Of a DNA stretch of 64,000 nt, positions 35,759 through 46,165 are shown piece by piece. The position numbers were made by a program, and so were the translations under genes. Origin of the DNA: a virus; the IMG/VR virus record IMGVR_UViG_3300012205_000277, positions 1 through 64,000 of that record. One strand, 5' to 3'. The first letter of the stretch is position 1, and each line of letters begins with the position of its first letter. The notes below the pieces were generated by a model. It had not been told where the DNA came from, did no database searches, and was given only the letters and a program-made list of their open reading frames with translations.

Positions 35759-37390
35759 ATGCCGGCAGCCAAACCCACCACCCCCGAGCCGGACATCCCC
35801 CAGGAGCTGATCGACAAGTTCACGCCCAAAAGGTTAATCACTGTCAAACTCCGGAATCCCGCCGGGCATCCGGGGCAGGAACGGATCTGCTATTCCACCA
35901 AGAAACGCATCATCGTAAGGGCCGGAAGACGTGGAGGCAAAACTTCCGCCAGTGCCATCAAGGCGGTGATGTCGTTTTTAGGGGACCCCGATAGAGGCAT
36001 TCCACCGAAACGCGTCCTTTATGCCGCGCCGACCATCGACCAGGTGCGTAAATTCTGGGAAGAAGTCAAACGCGCCTTGCACGAAGGCCTGGCCTACAAG
36101 GTGTATTACAAAAACGAGACCAACCATATTATCGAGCCCTTCGGAACTCCGCCGGTGATGCCCGGAGAACGTCCCCGGCACCCACGGATCCGCGCCAAAA
36201 CCGCCTTCAACGCGGAGAGTTTGCGTGGAGATTTCGCCGACGTTTTGATCCTCGATGAATACCAACTGATGGATGAAACCGCCTGGACGGAAGTCGGCGC
36301 GCCGATGCTGATGGACAATAACGGGGATGTGATTTTCATATACACGCCACCCAGCCTCGAAAGCCGCTCGGCATCGAAGGCGCGCGACCCGCAGCATGCC
36401 GCGAAAATGTACCGCGAACATAAAGACGATCCGTTGTGGGAATGCATCCATTTCGCGAGCAGAGAAAACCCGCACATCTCTGAAGAAGGGATCGAAGAAG
36501 CCAGTAAGAACATGACGGCGCTCGCCTACCGCCAGGAGATTCTCGCCGAAGATACCGAAGAAATTCCGGGAGCCTTGTGGACGCGGAAAATCATCGAAGA
36601 GTCCAGAGTGAAATCGATTCCGTGCGAACTGCGGCGGGTGGTGGTGGCGGTCGATCCGAGCGGCGGAAACCTTACCGAAGTCGGGATCATGGCGGCCGGC
36701 GAAGGCGCCGACGGGCATTACTATGTGCTGCGCGACGCTTCGATGAAAGCCAGCCGGCCGAAAGAATGGGCGCAGCGCGCGGTGAACCTGTATTACGAGC
36801 TCCTCGCCGACCGGGTAATCGCGGAACGCAACTACGGCGGGGACATGGTCGAAGAAACGCTACGTAACGTGGATGAAAACGTGTCTTACCACGACGTTGT
36901 TTCTTCGCGCGGGAAACTGGTGCGCGCCGAGCCCATCCTGGCGCTGTTCCAGCAAAACAAGATGCACCTGGTATGCCGCTGCGGGCAATCGCCCTGCCGC
37001 GAATTCGCGGAACTGGAAGAAGAACTCGTCACGTACACGGCCGAAGCCGGCCAGAAATCGCCGAACCGCTTAGACGCCATGGTCTTTGCAGGAACGGAAC
37101 TTTCCGGCATGGGCAGCCTCGGCCTGCTCGACCTGTTCAAGTCCGGGCGCGCCGGGAAAATGGCGGAACGGGAAATCGCGAAGATCAAGACGTCGACCTC
37201 GCTGGCCGCGATCGCGACAAACGACAAGACCCCGCGGTGCACGAATTGCGGAAGCTTGACGCTAAGCGTGCTCAGCCGCGGGCCGCAATTCGACGGCGGG
37301 ATCGAGTACCGCTGCCAGGCTTGCGGAAACCAGCAACCCAAGCCCACCATTTTGGGAATCGGCAGCCGACGAATCCAATTGGAAAAATAA
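35759..37390 (+). CDS. terL: Terminase large subunit with C-terminal zinc ribbon
   Basis: AGRRGGKT, LRG...D.LILDE, VAVDPS, E.NYGG, K..RAEP, SPNRLDA. Confidence 0.95.
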   Translation: MPAAKPTTPEPDIPQELIDKFTPKRLITVKLRNPAGHPGQERICYSTKKRIIVRAGRRGGKTSASAIKAVMSFLGDPDRGIPPKRVLYAAPTIDQVRKFWEEVKRALHEGLAYKVYYKNETNHIIEPFGTPPVMPGERPRHPRIRAKTAFNAESLRGDFADVLILDEYQLMDETAWTEVGAPMLMDNNGDVIFIYTPPSLESRSASKARDPQHAAKMYREHKDDPLWECIHFASRENPHISEEGIEEASKNMTALAYRQEILAEDTEEIPGALWTRKIIEESRVKSIPCELRRVVVAVDPSGGNLTEVGIMAAGEGADGHYYVLRDASMKASRPKEWAQRAVNLYYELLADRVIAERNYGGDMVEETLRNVDENVSYHDVVSSRGKLVRAEPILALFQQNKMHLVCRCGQSPCREFAELEEELVTYTAEAGQKSPNRLDAMVFAGTELSGMGSLGLLDLFKSGRAGKMAEREIAKIKTSTSLAAIATNDKTPRCTNCGSLTLSVLSRGPQFDGGIEYRCQACGNQQPKPTILGIGSRRIQLEK

Positions 37391-39010: not shown

Positions 39011-39040
39011 TTGACAGCGCGGGCGGAGTTCTGGCAAAGT
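39011..39040 (+). promoter_or_regulatory. Putative promoter of the pth-like/tRNA unit
   Basis: TTGACA-N18-CAAAGT with TG extension. Confidence 0.5.
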
Positions 39041-39049
39041 CTTCGCATC

Positions 39050-39487
39050 ATGACCTAGATTCCACAAGAAGAATCTTACGTTTTTTGTTTCATCCGCACT
39101 AACCTCCCGACCGAACATCAATTTGTGCAAGCCCTTCATTCCGTCTATCATCTGGCACAACTCCGCCGCGAAGATGGCACGCCCAACATCGTCCTGATCG
39201 GGTTGCCGGATGCGGCGGCGCTCCGGCGCGCGGAACAGAAGCTGATTGCCGCGAAGATCCCGCATTTTGTTTGGGAAGAGCCGGATTATAATTTTGGGCT
39301 TACGAGCATTGCGACGGCGCCGATCCGCGGCGATGAGCGCAAGGCTTTGGCCAATTATCGAGTTTACAAAGCACCGGTGGTGTCAAGTAGCACGTCGCCC
39401 TCTAAAGGTGAAAGTGTCTGCTCAATACAGACCCGGTGCGCCAATTCCAGTGGGGCAGGCACGGTTGCTAGCGCTGTGCGGGTTTGA
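39050..39487 (+). CDS. PTH2/PTRHD1-like peptidyl-tRNA hydrolase with in-frame TAG at codon 3; ORF runs into the tRNA genes
   Basis: MT*IPQEESYVFCFIRTNL...QALHS...IVLIGLPD...IPHFVWEEPD...TSIATAP...YRVYK. Confidence 0.75.
39371..39443 (+). tRNA. Atypical tRNA, anticodon CUA (amber)
   Basis: GCACCGG/CCGGTGC-G-CCA; D stem GTGT/GCAC with loop CAAGTA lacking GG; stem TCGCC/GGTGA with loop CT-CTA-AA; T stem GTCTG/CAGAC with loop CTCAATA. Confidence 0.8.
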
Positions 39488-39504
39488 GTACCACTGCCCC
39501 ACCA
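39452..39504 (+). ncRNA. 53-nt D-armless tRNA-like RNA with CUA centred in its loop
   Basis: GGGGCAG/CTGCCCC-A-CCA; stem GCACGGT/GCTGTGC with loop TG-CTA-GC; mini T arm GGT-TTGAGT-ACC. Confidence 0.65.
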
Positions 39505-39510
39505 GTTTGA

Positions 39511-39585
39511 CCGCGTGTAGCTCAGTGGCAGAGCAGGGACTTCTAAACTCCTTGGGCGCGAGTTCGATTCTCGCCACGCGGTCCA
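39511..39585 (+). tRNA. Amber suppressor tRNA (CUA)
   Basis: CCGCGTG/CACGCGG-T-CCA; canonical TAGCTCAGTGG and GTTCGATTC; loop TT-CTA-AA; C31-C39 mismatch. Confidence 0.88.
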
Positions 39586-39638
39586 AATGTCAAGTTTCCG
39601 GCGCAAAAACTTGACATTTAGAAACGGAATCTTATACT
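39585..39638 (+). promoter_or_regulatory. 13-bp perfect inverted repeat overlapping the promoter of the ARPP-1 gene
   Basis: AAATGTCAAGTTT-N9-AAACTTGACATTT; TTGACA-N16-TATACT. Confidence 0.75.
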
Positions 39639-39687: not shown

Positions 39688-40794
39688 ATGCCAAACCTCG
39701 AGCTATCCGTCAATTCCATTTGTAAAATCGTTTCCGAAGAAAAATACGGTTTCAAATTCGGCAAGCCCGATCGTCCGTCGGCCGAATCGTTGTCTTGCAT
39801 CCTCCCGATCCTGCGCAAGACGGCGCAAGTCCGCCAATACGTGACGTATCCGGAAAGCGATCAAGTCCTCGTCCACGACTCCGGCAGCATCAACAAAGTC
39901 AACCTGCTCAATTCCTCGAAAGAAAATGTTTTCGTCCGCAGCGGAACGATTTTCGAGGGCAAAGGCACGCAAAGCCGCGCGTTGACGCGCAGTGCGGTGC
40001 TCTTTCCCGGCCAGGCGGTGGCGCTCGATGTGCGCTGCGTGCATGCCTCGCACGGGATCCGCAGCGGGTCGGCATTCGTTTACGGCGGGATCACCCCGCT
40101 GAGCGTCGATACGGCTTTCTATCGTTCCGGGTACACTCCGGGCGATCAGCACACCATGTGGAATACGGTAACGGCCAGCACCACTTCGATGAGCGGCATG
40201 TCGGCTGGCGAGGTCCCCGAACCGGTCCGCGGCAGCTTTGAAAAATGGGCTGGCGCCCCAAGGCGCGGAAGCCGTCGCAGCCTCATGGCTTCCGGCGGAA
40301 GCGTCGTCCAGGACTTCGGCAGAGCCGTCATTGGCGAAGCCGGCCATGAAACGTACCTGCCCAACGCTGACAACCTCAAAGAGAACTTCGATGCGTTCGC
40401 CAAGAACTTTGACGAGATCCTGTCGAAAGCGCGGCTGCATGACAACCAGGTCGGTCTCGGGCTGATTACCGACAAAGGATGCAAAACCGTTGAACTTTTT
40501 GATATAGGCAAATCCTGGGAAGCGGTCCACAAGGATTCTGTAAAACGCGTGGGCGCAGAATTGCTTCGCGGCGAGGACAAAACGAATGTGTTCGAATACA
40601 AGCCGGAGCATGCGGTCAATGCGGTTCGCGCGGTCCTTGGATTGCCGTTCAAAACCAACCTGATCTACCAACATAAGCCGTCGAACGGCGAGCCGCCGGT
40701 ATCGATCTTTGGATTGACGGCCGAGCGCTTCGTCGGCGAAGTGGTCGAGTTGGATTCGCGAGTGATCCACCTGGTCATTATTGAGACGGTGTAA
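39688..40794 (+). CDS. ARPP-1/DUF6569-like protein
   Basis: G.I..V.L.N.S...VF...G..F.G..TQ.R......L.PG....L.V.CV; Q..MW..V. Confidence 0.7.
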   Translation: MPNLELSVNSICKIVSEEKYGFKFGKPDRPSAESLSCILPILRKTAQVRQYVTYPESDQVLVHDSGSINKVNLLNSSKENVFVRSGTIFEGKGTQSRALTRSAVLFPGQAVALDVRCVHASHGIRSGSAFVYGGITPLSVDTAFYRSGYTPGDQHTMWNTVTASTTSMSGMSAGEVPEPVRGSFEKWAGAPRRGSRRSLMASGGSVVQDFGRAVIGEAGHETYLPNADNLKENFDAFAKNFDEILSKARLHDNQVGLGLITDKGCKTVELFDIGKSWEAVHKDSVKRVGAELLRGEDKTNVFEYKPEHAVNAVRAVLGLPFKTNLIYQHKPSNGEPPVSIFGLTAERFVGEVVELDSRVIHLVIIETV

Positions 40795-41058
40795 ACTCAT
40801 GGAATGGGTCTTACCGCCGAAGAACGCGAGAAATTCGCGGCCTATCTCGAGCAAAACGCCAGGGACACCGAGAAACTGGTGCAGCAACTGCTGAATCTCC
40901 CGGCAGGCCGGCAACTGGCCGCACGATTCGAGAAAGAAGCGGAGGCTTCCCGGATCATCGCGGAGAAATTGCGGAACACCCTGAGGCAGGAAATCAAATA
41001 ATCAAGGGTACTCGCTTGCTGTGGGACGCCCCAAGCTTTCCCCTTGATTATTTTTCCT

Positions 41059-41394
41059 CTATCCGACCGGAACGCCAAGCCCGAAGGAAATCTGTGCCGC
41101 CGGCCCGCTCACGATATCGATCGAGACCGCCCCGGTTGGACCCGGCGTCCCGTCCGTATTCGTCACCGCGGCATTGATCTGCACGGTCCCGAGCTTCGCT
41201 CCGCCGGCAATCACCCCGCTCGCGACCGTTCCGCTGGCAGGAGTGGCATCCGGCAACACCGTGGCACTGGCCGGGTCGCTCGAACTGACCGTGATCGTGC
41301 CGCCCGGCGCCAGCTGCGCCGGGTTTCCGTCCGCATCCACGGCGGTCAACTGGTAAGGCACCTTCTGAACGTCTTGCAATTGGAAATTGGACAT
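41059..41394 (-). CDS. Ig-like beta-sandwich protein
   Basis: L...DADGNP......SSSDP..ATV; GGAGG SD. Confidence 0.65.
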   Translation of the reverse strand: MSNFQLQDVQKVPYQLTAVDADGNPAQLAPGGTITVSSSDPASATVLPDATPASGTVASGVIAGGAKLGTVQINAAVTNTDGTPGPTGAVSIDIVSGPAAQISFGLGVPVG

Positions 41395-42249: not shown

Positions 42250-42687
42250 ATGGCGCGATGGGTGAAATGGTCGATTGGCGGTACCGCCGGCCTGGTCATA
42301 GCCTTCTTGTTCTATCTGGCCTTGTTTAATCATATCGCCATCAACGAAATCGGCGTAGCTTACAATTCCATCGGCGGCAAAGTCTGGGTGCAGGATCATC
42401 CCGGGTGGTATGTGACCGCGCCAACCGTGGAAGTGGCGGTCATCCCGACAGTCCCTTTGCGGGTAACGATACCTTCCGAAGCCAAGGTGATCAACACGAA
42501 AATCGTCCGGTTCAATCCCAAAGGCGTCGATGAATTTATCCGCCTGCAAGGCTTCAGTTATTTTTCAAATCAAGGAATCGAAAATATCCTGATGGGCTAC
42601 GCGTTTTCCGGACAGAAGTATCCTTTCCTGGATGTGCTGCAGGAAAGCGGCGGCGAGAACGCCACTTCCGCTCCGCTCCGGCAATGA
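42250..42687 (+). CDS. Short SPFH/band-7-like membrane protein
   Basis: N-terminal TM helix, I..NEIGV..N..GG......PGWY. Confidence 0.55.
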   Translation: MARWVKWSIGGTAGLVIAFLFYLALFNHIAINEIGVAYNSIGGKVWVQDHPGWYVTAPTVEVAVIPTVPLRVTIPSEAKVINTKIVRFNPKGVDEFIRLQGFSYFSNQGIENILMGYAFSGQKYPFLDVLQESGGENATSAPLRQ

Positions 42688-43110
42688 AATGGCGCATCGC
42701 GATGACGCTAAGCCTCGCGGCTGTTGCGGTGCGACTGCTGTATGGCTGGAGGCAACTCACGTTCCTCGTATGGACGGTTGCGGCGGTCATCAACCATGCG
42801 CATCCGCTTCTGACCGTATCGGCGATCGAAGGGACAGTGATTCTTGGCATCGTCAAGGCCTCGTGGTTGGCGGCAGGAAGGATTCTTGATTTTTGGATGG
42901 AGCTAAAATGGAAGTGCGTATCTCGCTATCGGAAGAGCAATTCAAGAAACTAGTTGCCGGCGAAATCGTGGACACCGAACTGCCCCATCCAGAGACTTAT
43001 GGTCTTGTCCCCATCAAGCTGGCGCTCCAGGATATCGGTTTCAAAGTCATGCTGCGCGCTGTTTATGATGCTATGGCCGCACAAGCCAAGAAGAACCGGG
43101 AAGCAGCCCG

Positions 43111-43305
43111 ATGAGACGCCGCTGGCTTACCGCCGAAGAGTACTCGCGGATCAAGGCGCTGCGCGGGCAAGGATTGACCTACCAACAGATTGCGTCGCGC
43201 TTTGGGATTCCGTTGCCGACGATCGAGACGATCGCGAGAGGCCGGTCGAAGCCGCATGTTTATGCCAAACTGAAACCGAGCGATACCCGGAGCGCGACCC
43301 GATGA
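43111..43305 (+). CDS. Helix-turn-helix protein
   Basis: GLTYQQIASRFGIP..TI..I..G. Confidence 0.7.
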   Translation: MRRRWLTAEEYSRIKALRGQGLTYQQIASRFGIPLPTIETIARGRSKPHVYAKLKPSDTRSATR

Positions 43306-44657
43306 AAACGTATTTCCGCAAAGTGAATGGTATGTACCATGTCGATGAGGAGGGTTATTTGGTCAAGACCAGCAATGGCGAGCGCGTGCCGCCAGAAGAG
43401 CCGCTGTTCATTTTGCGCGGCCGCGATGCGCTTGCTGTTGAAACCATTCATCATTACGTGGGATTGCTCGCTGGCAATGGAGGAGATCCGCAGAGAATGT
43501 TCGAACTTGGCGGCGTGGTTCACGATTTTTTGATGTTCAGGAAAGACCATCCCGAACGCATGAAACTGCCAGGGAGCACCAAAGGCAAATGATTGTCAAA
43601 GTCAAGATCGCGCCGTTTGAAAAATGGTGTGAGCCGATGCGGCAGGCCATGGCGCTTGCGCCGCCGCACCTTCTTCATAGATTTGGCCTTCCTATCGGCG
43701 TGGAAATTAGCATCGAAACGTCCTCAATGAGGACCACGCAAACGGTTATTCCCTGCGGTGGAAAAGAATGGCGCGTTGTGGAGTTGCCGGCCGAGATCAC
43801 GCCGTTTGATGCGGAAACCGGCGAAGTGAAGAAGGGCGGACGCGGCTGGATTTGCGAGCATGTTCTCGAAATGGATTGAACTGAAAAAAATGGACCAGCA
43901 AGAAAGACTTGAAGCCGTCAAAGCCTCGGTCGAACAAGTCCGCCAACTGACTTTGCAAAGCTGGCCTTCGACCCACTCGAATCCCCCGGATATCGAGAAT
44001 TGGCGGACGACGATTGCCTGTCTGATTAAAAATTGCGATGAATTACAAAGGGCTCTGCGCCAGCAGCGTTGGATCGATGAGAATTTTGCTTCTTATGTGC
44101 TGGATCAATGCGAACGGGCAAAAATATCGACGCGCGCCGGCCATCCCATGGATTGGATGGCGCTGATGGACAGCTTAATCGTTGCCTGCCGCGACGTTCT
44201 TGACCGATGATCTGCCCGAAGGAGTGACGATGCCGCTATTTGAATGTGAGCAATGCCATTGCGTGGACAACACAGCGCTTACAAACTTCTGGCAAGCGCA
44301 CATTGAGGAAAAGCCTCAGCTATGCAGCGCGTGCGACCCTGAAATTGGGAAGTGGCATGATAAGTTTCCGAGGATTCCAGCAGCCGAATACACGGAGAAG
44401 TATCCGAAGGCCAGAAAAGTTGAATATCCGGCTAAGGGCGCGGCGCAAAGCCGTGGGTGAGGAGACGGCGGGCCGATGAAAAGACGAGCATTGCAGATGG
44501 AATTCGTACCCTAGCCCAAGCAGCCCATCCCGCTCGCTGCATTGGCTATCCTGATTGCGATGGTGACCTAGAAGGCGAGAAGCATAGTGAGAAGTGCAAG
44601 GCAGCCCATCCCAGAGTTTCAGGCGCAACTAGCGCCGCGAAGGATGGTGATTGACAA

Positions 44658-44870: not shown

Positions 44871-45967
44871 ATAGCGGTGACTTGATGCGCGTGAGGACTT
44901 GGGGCTGCGGTGCGCAGTTAGCTTGAAATCAGAAACCACAAGCAACAAGCGCAGGACAGCCACAGCCCCAAGATTTCAGGAGAAATGGGCCATGAGCGAA
45001 GCCAAACGCGACTTTTATGGTGATCTGGTTGGTCCTGACCGGCAACCTGAGCAGGAGCGAGCCATGAGCGAAGTGGCAAAGCTAGTTGAGAAGTGGCGCA
45101 AAGAGCAATTTACATATTCAGGCATCCCAGACTGGATGGCCGTATTTCTGGCAGTTAGAACATGCGCCGACGAACTGGAATCCGCGCTACGAGCGGATGA
45201 ACAAGCACCAGAAAGCACAGGAGGGATTTACAAAGGAGGTACCCGCTACGAGGGCACGAACGAACGGGCCGCGAGTGAGACTGAAGACTATCCCGGCCAG
45301 GCTTTCTTCCATGAGAACAATCCGAATATCAAACGGGCTGAGGAGCGAATTGTGAGCCGGGAAGAGTTCAATGGCAGTATCAGTGATGAGGCTGCGCAGT
45401 CCACCCTAGAGGAAAGAGCGAGGGAGTTTGCCGACAAAATAGCTGGCCTGCTTGACCCCCAGCAACTTGCGACAATTGGAAAAGGTGGCCGCGTTCCTTC
45501 TAGCACACTTCGGTATAACGTTCGACAGGCGAAGAAAGCAATAGAACCTTTGGCCTTAGAAATGCTCACCAGCGTCCAAGCCGAAGCGGAAGGCCATGTC
45601 GTCATCCGAATTAGGAACGTCCTCGCGGTGCTCGCAGGTGCTCCATTTGACAATCTCACGCCGGAAATTCAGGGACTAGTAAAACATTGGCAGCCAGCAA
45701 TCCAAGCCAAGTTGGAAACGGCGCTCCAGCCCCAAGCCGCAAGTGCTGGGGCGCTGAGTGCTATAAAAGAGAAAATACACTGGTATGTCGGCAGTGATTC
45801 AATGAGTGACTGTTGGGCAGAGATCTTGCCGCTGCTCGCTGCCCACGATCAAAAGGTGCGAGAAGGGATGCTGGATTTGCTACGAAAATGTCCGGAGTGG
45901 GCCACACCAAAAGCAAATTGGCTAAAGGCCGCCCTGGCCTCCCGAACAGAGGAGAAGGAGACGAGTC

Positions 45968-46165
45968 ATGGCAAGACTTAGCCCAAGGTCCAGAGAGCTA
46001 GTCACGTTGCTGATCTGTGGGCTTACTATCAAAGAAGCGGCATCCTACATGGACATTTGCCACGGCGCAGCCAGGAAACTCTTGATGAAAGCAAGAATCA
46101 AGCTCGGCTGTCGAACTGCCTGGCAACTGCTATACGAACTTGGGATGGAGTGTAATCTCAAATGA
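45968..46165 (+). CDS. LuxR/sigma4-type helix-turn-helix protein
   Basis: LSPR.RE...L...GLT.KEAA..M.I........AR.KLG. Confidence 0.75.
   Translation: MARLSPRSRELVTLLICGLTIKEAASYMDICHGAARKLLMKARIKLGCRTAWQLLYELGMECNLK

What the first reader, a model, noticed from the sequence alone, without database searches (positions are those of the whole stretch)
39360..39487. The pth-like ORF has no stop before tRNA 1, so processing would create a non-stop mRNA
The domain ends ...YRVYK where PTH2-family proteins normally end, and the next base (39371) is the first base of the tRNA. The frame continues 39 codons through two tRNA genes to TGA 39487. RNase P cleavage would leave a stop-less message that is subject to tmRNA tagging, analogous to arfA control, so the protein would accumulate when ribosome rescue is saturated. 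Translation and tRNA maturation would also compete.
Basis: partly seen in the sequence, partly recalled or inferred. Interest (0 to 1): 0.8.

Follow-up and report, generated by a model that had tools for sequence, protein, structure and literature searches.

The report
Stop-less phage gene running into tRNAs
A small phage gene for a peptidyl-tRNA-hydrolase-like protein has no stop codon of its own and runs straight into amber-suppressor tRNA genes; dozens of related soil phages keep this layout, so it looks selected, but how it works is untested.

Summary
The frame from ATG 39050 ends its domain (…YRVYK) at 39370. tRNA 1 (anticodon CUA) starts at 39371. The first in-frame stop is TGA 39485-39487, inside a 53-nt mini-tRNA-like element and before the canonical tRNA 2.

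In the window alone this could be chance, but it is conserved. Of 39 non-redundant related loci with an abutting tRNA-like element, only one has a stop before it. In 37 the frame stays open through the whole first element, against 34 of 78 control frames. A conservative test gives P = 0.006. The fused state marks one deep clade, where 43 of 45 rows run on. More distant homologues have their own stop and no adjacent tRNA.

The fold is PTH2-like. Every homologue carries an in-frame TAG, usually at codon 3, and most fused genes appear leaderless. The phage is not TAG-recoded.

However, the open frame and the codon-phased junction suggest that ribosomes really do read through tRNA 1. My best reading is a kinetic coupling of amber-gated translation with tRNA maturation. 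The arfA-like tmRNA control remains possible but untested. The scan noted this same stretch before, and not on other DNA.

The parts
39011..39040 (+). Promoter-like site: -35 TTGACA (39011-39016), 18-nt spacer, weak -10 CAAAGT (39035-39040). It ends 9 nt before the ATG, so the message would have almost no leader.
   Evidence: Read. TTGAC lies 34-44 nt before the ATG in 34 of 44 fused-class loci, and few have a Shine-Dalgarno. The consensus scanner did not call it because the -10 is weak. The transcription start is inferred, not shown.
39050..39058 (+). Start ATG, ACC, then an in-frame TAG (39056-39058) followed by A: the amber gate at codon 3.
   Evidence: An in-frame TAG is present in 74 of 74 unique homologous loci, at codon 3 in 60. 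The next base is A 53, G 19, C 2, T 0. The next codon is mostly ATT, GTT or ATC, which are not restart codons. The next in-frame start, GTG 39125, would delete the first beta strand.
39050..39370 (+). PTH2-like domain, 107 codons, ending ...NYRVYK.
   Evidence: AlphaFold2 pLDDT 74. Foldseek probability 1.00 and TM 0.67-0.74 to 2zv3, 3erj, 1wn2, 1q7s. Pfam PTH2 is the top but sub-threshold hit in 7 of 10 members. Codon-position entropy 0.92/0.69/1.42 shows it is coding.
39371..39443 (+). tRNA 1: anticodon CUA, encoded CCA, irregular D and T loops. It lies wholly inside the open frame.
   Evidence: ARAGORN. Rfam 44.6 bits. Fold z-score -4.9.
39371..39487 (+). Stop-less continuation of the frame: 38 sense codons plus TGA.
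   Evidence: There is no codon periodicity in the homologous stretch (entropy 0.58/0.65/0.70), so the peptide itself is not under selection; only the openness of the frame is.
39452..39504 (+). Mini tRNA-like element: 7-bp acceptor stem, then A and CCA; a 7-bp hairpin with loop UGCUAGC; a 3-bp stem with loop UUGAGU that holds the frame's TGA (39485-39487).
   Evidence: Fold. In 18 homologous copies, 14 of 15 predicted pairs show compensatory changes (alignment A3).
39511..39585 (+). tRNA 2: canonical cloverleaf, anticodon CUA, encoded CCA. Probably the working amber suppressor. The frame does not reach it.
   Evidence: ARAGORN. Rfam 59.9 bits.
39586..39638 (+). AT-rich inverted repeat after tRNA 2, overlapping a strong promoter (TTGACA, 16 nt, TATACT) for the next gene (ARPP-1 domain, 39688-40794).
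   Evidence: 11 of 12 consensus matches. (PF20208). No canonical terminator was called.

Best explanation
The gene is the translated 5' leader of a suppressor-tRNA precursor. One transcript appears to start at or next to the ATG, and it carries, in order: an amber codon at codon 3, a PTH2-like domain, no stop codon, tRNA 1 (CUA), a mini tRNA-like element and tRNA 2 (CUA).

A ribosome can enter the body of the gene only if UAG is suppressed. Once in, it has nowhere to stop before the tRNA. It either melts and crosses tRNA 1 and ends at the UGA in the mini element, or it runs onto an end already cut by RNase P. Translation and maturation of the first tRNA-like element therefore compete for the same RNA.

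I think this kinetic coupling is the selected feature. It ties the output of the hydrolase-like protein, and probably the maturation of tRNA 1 and the mini element, to how well amber suppression is working.

Shown: the anatomy, its conservation, the open frame, the fold. Inferred: co-transcription, RNase P cutting, which product is stable, and the direction of any feedback.
For: Conservation: of 39 non-redundant loci with a tRNA or mini-tRNA starting within 40 nt of the domain end, 1 has a stop before the element and 1 has a stop inside it. In 37 the frame is open through the whole element, against 34 of 78 control frames. Collapsed to 13 element-cluster by phase combinations, the result is about 12 of 13 against a background of 0.56, P = 0.006.

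The element's first base falls on codon position 1 in 32 of 39 loci, with offsets 0, 3, 6, 9, 12, 15, 21 and 24.

In loci built like the window, the tRNA-to-mini spacer takes the values 1, 4, 7 or 2, 5, 8. This offsets the length of the mini element, so its loop TGA stays in frame in all but one lineage.

The fused state has persisted while the first element changed between canonical-type tRNA, irregular tRNA, long tRNA and mini element. It marks one clade, in which 43 of 45 rows run on.

Of 145 representative homologues, 118 have tails of 15 aa or more, many with typical tRNA read-through peptides.

The amber gate is universal and sits in a suppression-friendly purine context. Fused genes are mostly leaderless.

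The tail shows no codon periodicity, so it is the open frame and not the peptide that is kept.
Against: No RNA or protein data exist for any member, so co-transcription, cleavage and read-through are all inferred.

The statistical support rests on my own delimitation of elements and on an uncertain count of independent lineages; the conservative P is only 0.006.

A regulatory leader would not need a conserved 100-residue enzyme. Homologues with their own stop keep the amber gate without any tRNA next to them, so the gate has a purpose independent of the fusion.

One lineage (L006, L026, L030) has lost the in-frame loop TGA and runs into tRNA 2 without obvious harm.
Confidence: 0.4

Rival explanations
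1. One reading: an arfA-like non-stop switch. RNase P cuts at 39370/39371 faster than ribosomes arrive. The message then ends at the last sense codon, ribosomes stall there, tmRNA tags the product for degradation, and untagged active protein (...YRVYK) accumulates only when trans-translation is saturated. Saturation is likely when amber suppression drives ribosomes past many stop codons.
For: The junction is exact and stop-less, and this is conserved. All three elements have 7-bp acceptor stems and an encoded CCA, which suits bacterial RNase P. The domain ends where stand-alone homologues end, give or take 4-13 residues. The tail peptide is not conserved as protein, as expected if it is dispensable or destabilising, like the tail of full-length ArfA (own knowledge). 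The element starts on a codon boundary in 32 of 39 loci. A peptidyl-tRNA-hydrolase-like enzyme fits a rescue role. PTH2 in jumbo phages has been proposed to serve ribosome rescue (PMC7824862).
Against: A cut at the junction makes everything downstream irrelevant to translation. Yet the frame is kept open through the first element and closed at a phased TGA in the second. A long junk tail on uncut transcripts could rescue the model, but that is an added assumption. There is no evidence for cleavage kinetics, tagging or activity.
Confidence: 0.25
2. Tolerated accident. A deletion once fused the gene's 3' end to a tRNA cluster. The extra 38 residues do no harm, and the layout persists by descent without any function.
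For: The fused state maps to one clade, so one origin is enough. Stand-alone homologues show that the domain works with its own stop. In the window alone the open stretch is within chance. One member regained a stop (L035: TGA at +6, tRNA at +15).
Against: A single point mutation would restore a stop, yet 43 of 45 rows in a clade that diverges to about 40% identity have none. The frame is open through the first element more often than control frames, even in the conservative count (P = 0.006). Tail and spacer lengths change in steps of three. The arrangement survived several replacements of the downstream element.
Confidence: 0.2
3. The ribosome acts as an anti-polarity device, or the tRNA acts as a 3' stabiliser. 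Translation right up to the structured tRNA keeps Rho off the 320-nt leader, so suppression feeds forward onto suppressor-tRNA transcription. Alternatively, tRNA 1 left on the 3' end protects the message from exonucleases.
For: An amber codon at codon 3 would leave the whole leader untranslated when suppression fails, which is the classical condition for polarity (own knowledge). There is no untranslated gap before the tRNA. Polycistrons of irregular suppressor-type tRNAs were seen in forest and peat soil metatranscriptomes (PMC5389517). I could not confirm that those are these loci.
Against: A stop placed directly before the tRNA would serve equally well against Rho, so the model explains neither the missing stop nor the open frame. 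Rho sites were not examined.
Confidence: 0.1

Closest known systems
arfA regulation in Escherichia coli (RNase III cleavage inside the ORF gives a non-stop mRNA whose product escapes only when tmRNA is limiting)
   Same: The ORF continues past a predicted endonuclease site to a later stop. The truncated product would end at the natural domain end. The protein plausibly acts in translation rescue.
   Different: The nuclease would be RNase P acting on a tRNA, not RNase III on a hairpin. The downstream RNA is itself a product, a suppressor tRNA. The gene also carries an amber gate. Nothing about tagging or activity has been tested.
Mitochondrial tRNA punctuation with incomplete stop codons
   Same: A coding sequence abuts a tRNA gene with no complete stop, and tRNA excision defines the mRNA 3' end.
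   Different: There is no in-frame T or TA before the tRNA that added A residues could complete to UAA (junctions). This is a bacterial system, and the frame stays open through the tRNA.
Leader-peptide attenuation (trp, his operons)
   Same: A sensing codon near the start of a leader ORF decides how far the ribosome travels. Ribosome position would remodel a downstream structured RNA.
   Different: The sensing codon is a stop codon read by the operon's own product. The leader is a conserved 107-residue enzyme domain. The regulated structure is a tRNA, not a terminator. No alternative pairing has been shown.
PTH2 (PF01981) peptidyl-tRNA hydrolases, including those noted in jumbo phages (PMC7824862)
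   Same: The same fold. Similar motifs: an RTDL-like first strand and an acidic-Gly-Thr segment. Present in phages.
   Different: Below the Pfam threshold. 11-16% identity to solved structures. Always amber-gated, and in one clade stop-less and fused to tRNA genes.
Stop-codon-recoded phages with suppressor tRNAs (Borges et al., bioRxiv 10.1101/2021.08.26.457843)
   Same: A phage-encoded tRNA(CUA) and an in-frame TAG in a phage gene.
   Different: This genome is not recoded. TAG ends about 20 of 127 crude gene calls. A TAG stop is conserved as a stop in a relative. Only this gene shows a conserved in-frame TAG.

Membership tests
PTH2 peptidyl-tRNA hydrolase (PF01981) | PTH2 alpha/beta fold | tested here: met
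   AF2 model, pLDDT 74. Foldseek probability 1.00 and TM 0.67-0.74 to 2zv3, 3erj, 1wn2, 1q7s, 1xty.
PTH2 peptidyl-tRNA hydrolase (PF01981) | Score above Pfam's gathering threshold | tested here: not met
   No hit for the window protein. Best E 0.013 among 10 members. No match in a six-frame search of the genome at E <= 1. No PDB hit by profile.
PTH2 peptidyl-tRNA hydrolase (PF01981) | Catalytic residues and hydrolysis of peptidyl-tRNA | not tested
   Invariant R16, Q24, Q27, H30, N46, E77, D79, T85 and T89 are listed, but they were not mapped onto the Pth2 active site.
arfA-type non-stop regulation | Endonucleolytic cut inside the ORF upstream of its stop | not testable with these tools
   An RNase P site is predicted from the tRNA structure and the encoded CCA. 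No RNA run holds the sequence.
arfA-type non-stop regulation | Product tagged by tmRNA and stable only when rescue is limiting | not testable with these tools
   This needs protein analysis in ssrA+ and ssrA- hosts.
Mitochondrial-type tRNA punctuation | Incomplete in-frame stop (T or TA) abutting the tRNA | tested here: not met
   The last codons before the element are AAA, TAT, TAC, TCC and similar. None leaves an in-frame T or TA.
TAG-recoded phage genome (code-15-like) | TAG avoided as a stop and frequent inside genes | tested here: not met
   Code 11 gives the best crude gene model, with TAG ending about 20 of 127 calls. The TAG ending the ORF at 42684 is matched by a stop in L001, followed by more stops.
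tRNA (Rfam RF00005), for the element the frame runs into | Score above the gathering threshold, with a cloverleaf | tested here: met
   44.6 bits against a threshold of 29. The D and T loops are irregular.

The most novel reading that the evidence does not exclude
This is a self-sensing suppressor-tRNA operon. The amber codon at the head of a leaderless ORF measures suppression. Ribosomes that pass it are forced, because there is no stop, into the precursor of the tRNA-like RNAs, which sets how those RNAs mature. The same race with RNase P yields a hydrolase-like rescue enzyme by a non-stop route. That would be a new kind of translational feedback device, widespread in soil phages.
Probability: 0.3. 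Interest if true: 0.9.

Novelty: categorically new. Interest (0 to 1): 0.8.

Why it matters
I found no description of a conserved protein-coding frame that lacks a stop and reads through a tRNA gene, or of a gene family that always carries an amber codon next to its start, in five of the six full-text searches run.

If the layout is functional, it shows a new way to couple translation to tRNA maturation. It may also explain how a phage that is not recoded can run amber suppressors without wrecking its own and its host's termination.

It would also give an easily testable natural example of non-stop or read-through control outside arfA, and a compact amber-gated expression module of possible use in synthetic biology.

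The family is large: 1650 clusters at E <= 0.001.

Tried and rejected
I used the search for related loci instead.
- The look-up of sequencing runs listed only soil DNA runs, and no RNA holder is listed. I did not use read laying because contigs cannot show RNA ends.
- Restart at the codon after TAG, with a mini-ORF M-T-stop, is rejected. That codon is mostly ATT, GTT or ATC, and GTT, GTC, GTA, GCT and ACT occur.
- Genome-wide TAG recoding is rejected.
- Candidate amber-containing genes at 42684-43592 and 41002-41394 are rejected; their TAGs behave as real stops in relatives. For 44899-46155 there was no homologue among the loci held.
- Completion of a partial stop by added A residues is rejected.
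- P0003/L012, which seemed to lack the tRNAs, is a rearranged or inverted contig and tells nothing.
- ARPP-1 as a conserved partner is rejected; it is absent from the close relative L013.
- Profile search of PDB sequences found nothing.
- The Pfam PTH2 search of the genome found nothing.
- Supplements of PMC5389517 are not held, so I could not confirm that its soil tRNA polycistrons are these loci.
- I did not run complex prediction, because no binding claim is made.

Full report
**What is in the window.** The window is the first 64 kb of a single 91,829-bp virus record at 54% G+C. The record is classed as a provirus and is about 60% complete. A large terminase subunit lies at 35759-37390. The record has 33 tRNA genes: 31 in an array beyond the window, and two with anticodon CUA at 39371-39443 and 39511-39585.

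The frame named in the finding reads ...NYRVYK up to 39370. Base 39371 is the first base of tRNA 1. The frame then runs 38 more sense codons to TGA 39485-39487. Both tRNAs pass Rfam's tRNA threshold, at 44.6 and 59.9 bits.

Between the two tRNAs, 39452-39504 folds as a D-armless tRNA-like element. It has a 7-bp acceptor stem followed by A and CCA, a 7-bp hairpin with loop UGCUAGC, and a 3-bp stem whose loop UUGAGU holds the TGA. So the frame crosses one full tRNA, ends inside the mini element, and never reaches tRNA 2.

**The protein.** Under table 11 the ORF starts at GTG 39125. That start would remove the first beta strand. Read from ATG 39050, the frame is ATG ACC TAG ATT..., with an amber codon at position 3.

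Pfam gives no hit for the window protein. PTH2 is the top but sub-threshold hit in 7 of 10 relatives, with a best E of 0.013. A profile search of PDB sequences finds nothing. An AlphaFold2 model from 10 relatives (pLDDT 74) matches archaeal Pth2 and human Bit1, with Foldseek probability 1.00 and TM 0.67-0.74. 'PTH2-like' therefore holds by fold. Membership of PF01981 by score does not hold, and catalytic residues were not mapped.

**Relatives.**
- A word-based search gave five homologues. Four have 30-40-residue tails after ...NYRV[YW] that look like translated tRNA; the fifth, P0003, comes from a rearranged contig.
- IMG/VR gave nine loci, a genome collection gave one, and JGI and ENA metagenomes gave eighty, nearly all from soil or peat.
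- An exhaustive profile search found 1650 representative clusters at E <= 0.001.
- Of 145 representatives with a complete domain end, 118 have tails of 15 residues or more and 24 have tails of 10 or fewer.

**The amber gate.** All 74 unique upstream contexts have an in-frame TAG shortly after an ATG, at codon 3 in 60 of them. The base after TAG is A in 53, G in 19, C in 2 and T in none. The codon after TAG is ATT (31), GTT (14), ATC (13) or ATG (5), with others rarer. Restart at that codon therefore cannot be general.

In the fused clade, TTGAC lies 34-44 nt before the ATG in 34 of 44 loci and a Shine-Dalgarno is rare. That points to a leaderless message. In the stand-alone class, 19 of 24 loci have a Shine-Dalgarno.

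The genome itself is not recoded. Table 11 gives the best crude gene model, and TAG ends about 20 of 127 calls. A TAG that ends the ORF starting at 42684 is matched by a stop in a relative.

**The missing stop.** I projected the domain end from a profile and located the first tRNA (relaxed ARAGORN) or mini element (7-bp stem plus NCCA) on the same strand. Among 39 non-redundant loci with such an element starting within 40 nt:
- One has a stop before it (L035: TGA at +6, tRNA at +15).
- One has a stop inside it (L056).
- In 37 the frame is open through the whole element.
- The two other frames are open in 34 of 78 cases.

Treating loci as independent would exaggerate this. Collapsed to 13 combinations of element cluster (single linkage, 70% identity) and phase, the frame is open in about 12 of 13 against a background of 0.56, giving P = 0.006.

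The element's first base is at codon position 1 in 32 of 39 loci, at offsets 0, 3, 6, 9, 12, 15, 21 and 24.

In loci built like the window, the spacer between tRNA 1 and the mini element is 1, 4 or 7 nt where the loop stop lies 31 nt into the element. It is 2, 5 or 8 nt where the stop lies 33 or 36 nt in. The loop T(G/A)A is thus in frame in all but the L006/L026/L030 lineage.

The close relative L001/L013 has an extra tRNA of exactly 93 nt inserted between the gene and the window-type tRNA. Its frame crosses both tRNAs.

Codon-position entropy is 0.92/0.69/1.42 in the domain but 0.58/0.65/0.70 in the tRNA 1 stretch. The tail peptide is therefore not selected; only its openness is.

**The mini element is real.** In 18 homologous copies, 14 of 15 predicted pairs show compensatory changes. 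The loop YTTGARTR and the 3' CCA are conserved.

**Phylogeny.** A maximum-likelihood tree of 67 distinct domains puts the fused state in one clade of 45 rows (support 91/74), of which 43 run on. The remaining clades have their own stop 4-26 codons after NYRLW and no adjacent tRNA, although some have CUA tRNAs 0.5-1.2 kb away.

Within the fused clade the first element has changed kind several times: canonical-type tRNA, irregular tRNA as in the window, 84-86-nt tRNA, and mini element.

**Interpretation.** RNase P cutting at 39370/39371 is plausible because all the elements have acceptor stems and encoded CCA. A cut message would have no stop.

A model in which the cut always comes first predicts no constraint downstream of the junction, yet the frame is kept open and phased. 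I therefore favour a kinetic coupling. A ribosome admitted by amber suppression must go on into the tRNA-like RNA, so translation and maturation of that RNA compete. Both an extended product (ending at the loop UGA) and a non-stop product are possible outcomes.

Which product is stable, and whether the coupling feeds back on the level of tRNA 1, the mini element or the hydrolase, cannot be decided here. No RNA run holds the sequence. Neutral persistence is disfavoured but not excluded.

**Literature.**
- PTH2 in jumbo phages has been proposed to help ribosome rescue (PMC7824862).
- Recoded gut phages carry suppressor tRNAs (bioRxiv 10.1101/2021.08.26.457843).
- Mukai et al. reported polycistrons of irregular, possibly suppressor tRNAs in forest and peat soil metatranscriptomes (PMC5389517). 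These may be the same loci, but I could not check that.
- Five of the six full-text searches run turned up no description of a stop-less ORF reading into tRNA genes, or of an always amber-gated gene family. The sixth led to the PTH2 review cited above.
- Earlier notes of this scan concern this same stretch only.

Noticed in passing
window 39050-39058, and all loci L001-L090: Every homologue of the PTH2-like gene has an in-frame TAG 1-8 codons after its ATG, usually as M-T-TAG-I or M-x-TAG-V. It is followed by a purine in 72 of 74 loci, even where no tRNA is adjacent.
   Followed up: yes
window 39452-39504; L-loci listed in alignment A3: A mini tRNA-like RNA of 50-57 nt with an encoded CCA and strong covariation. 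Many copies carry CUA in the anticodon-like loop; others carry GAGGCAU. A second type (beta) sits directly after the gene in L008-like loci.
   Followed up: partly
window 39371-39443, and tRNA 1 of 11 related loci: The first tRNA has irregular and highly variable T loops (TGAAAAT, TACAAGC, CGCAAAT and others) and D loops that often lack GG. It may not be an ordinary elongator tRNA. tRNA 2 is canonical.
   Followed up: partly
L001 6536-6632, L002 6440-6542, L004 6443-6538: In some relatives the second CUA tRNA has a long variable arm (96-103 nt). This recalls the allo-tRNA or Ser/Leu-type suppressors described from Acidobacteria (PMC5389517).
   Followed up: no
window 39586-39638 and 39688-40794: A near-consensus promoter (TTGACA, 16 nt, TATACT) sits inside an AT-rich inverted repeat right after tRNA 2. 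It precedes an ARPP-1 domain gene, which is absent from the close relative L013 and so looks like an insertion.
   Followed up: partly
genome bases 81615-90219 (beyond the window): An array of 31 tRNA genes on the minus strand covers most amino acids. The two CUA tRNAs sit apart from it, next to the PTH2-like gene.
   Followed up: no
window 42951-43300: The stretch after the TAG stop of the small membrane-protein ORF (42684-42953) is about 73% conserved at DNA level in L001, but is full of stops there. It is a conserved non-coding region before the next ORF.
   Followed up: no
L012 (WNFR01145126.1), protein P0003: The contig joins 39003-39352, then 39903-40130, then an inverted copy of 39950-39440. 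It is probably an assembly chimera or an inversion, not a tRNA-less variant.
   Followed up: partly
L055 and L065, downstream of the gene: Some polycistrons include tRNA(GGU), tRNA-Lys(UUU) or tRNA-Arg(UCU) between the mini element and the CUA tRNA. Codon 2 of the gene is nearly always ACN (Thr). A link to the GGU tRNAs of PMC5389517 is only a thought.
   Followed up: no
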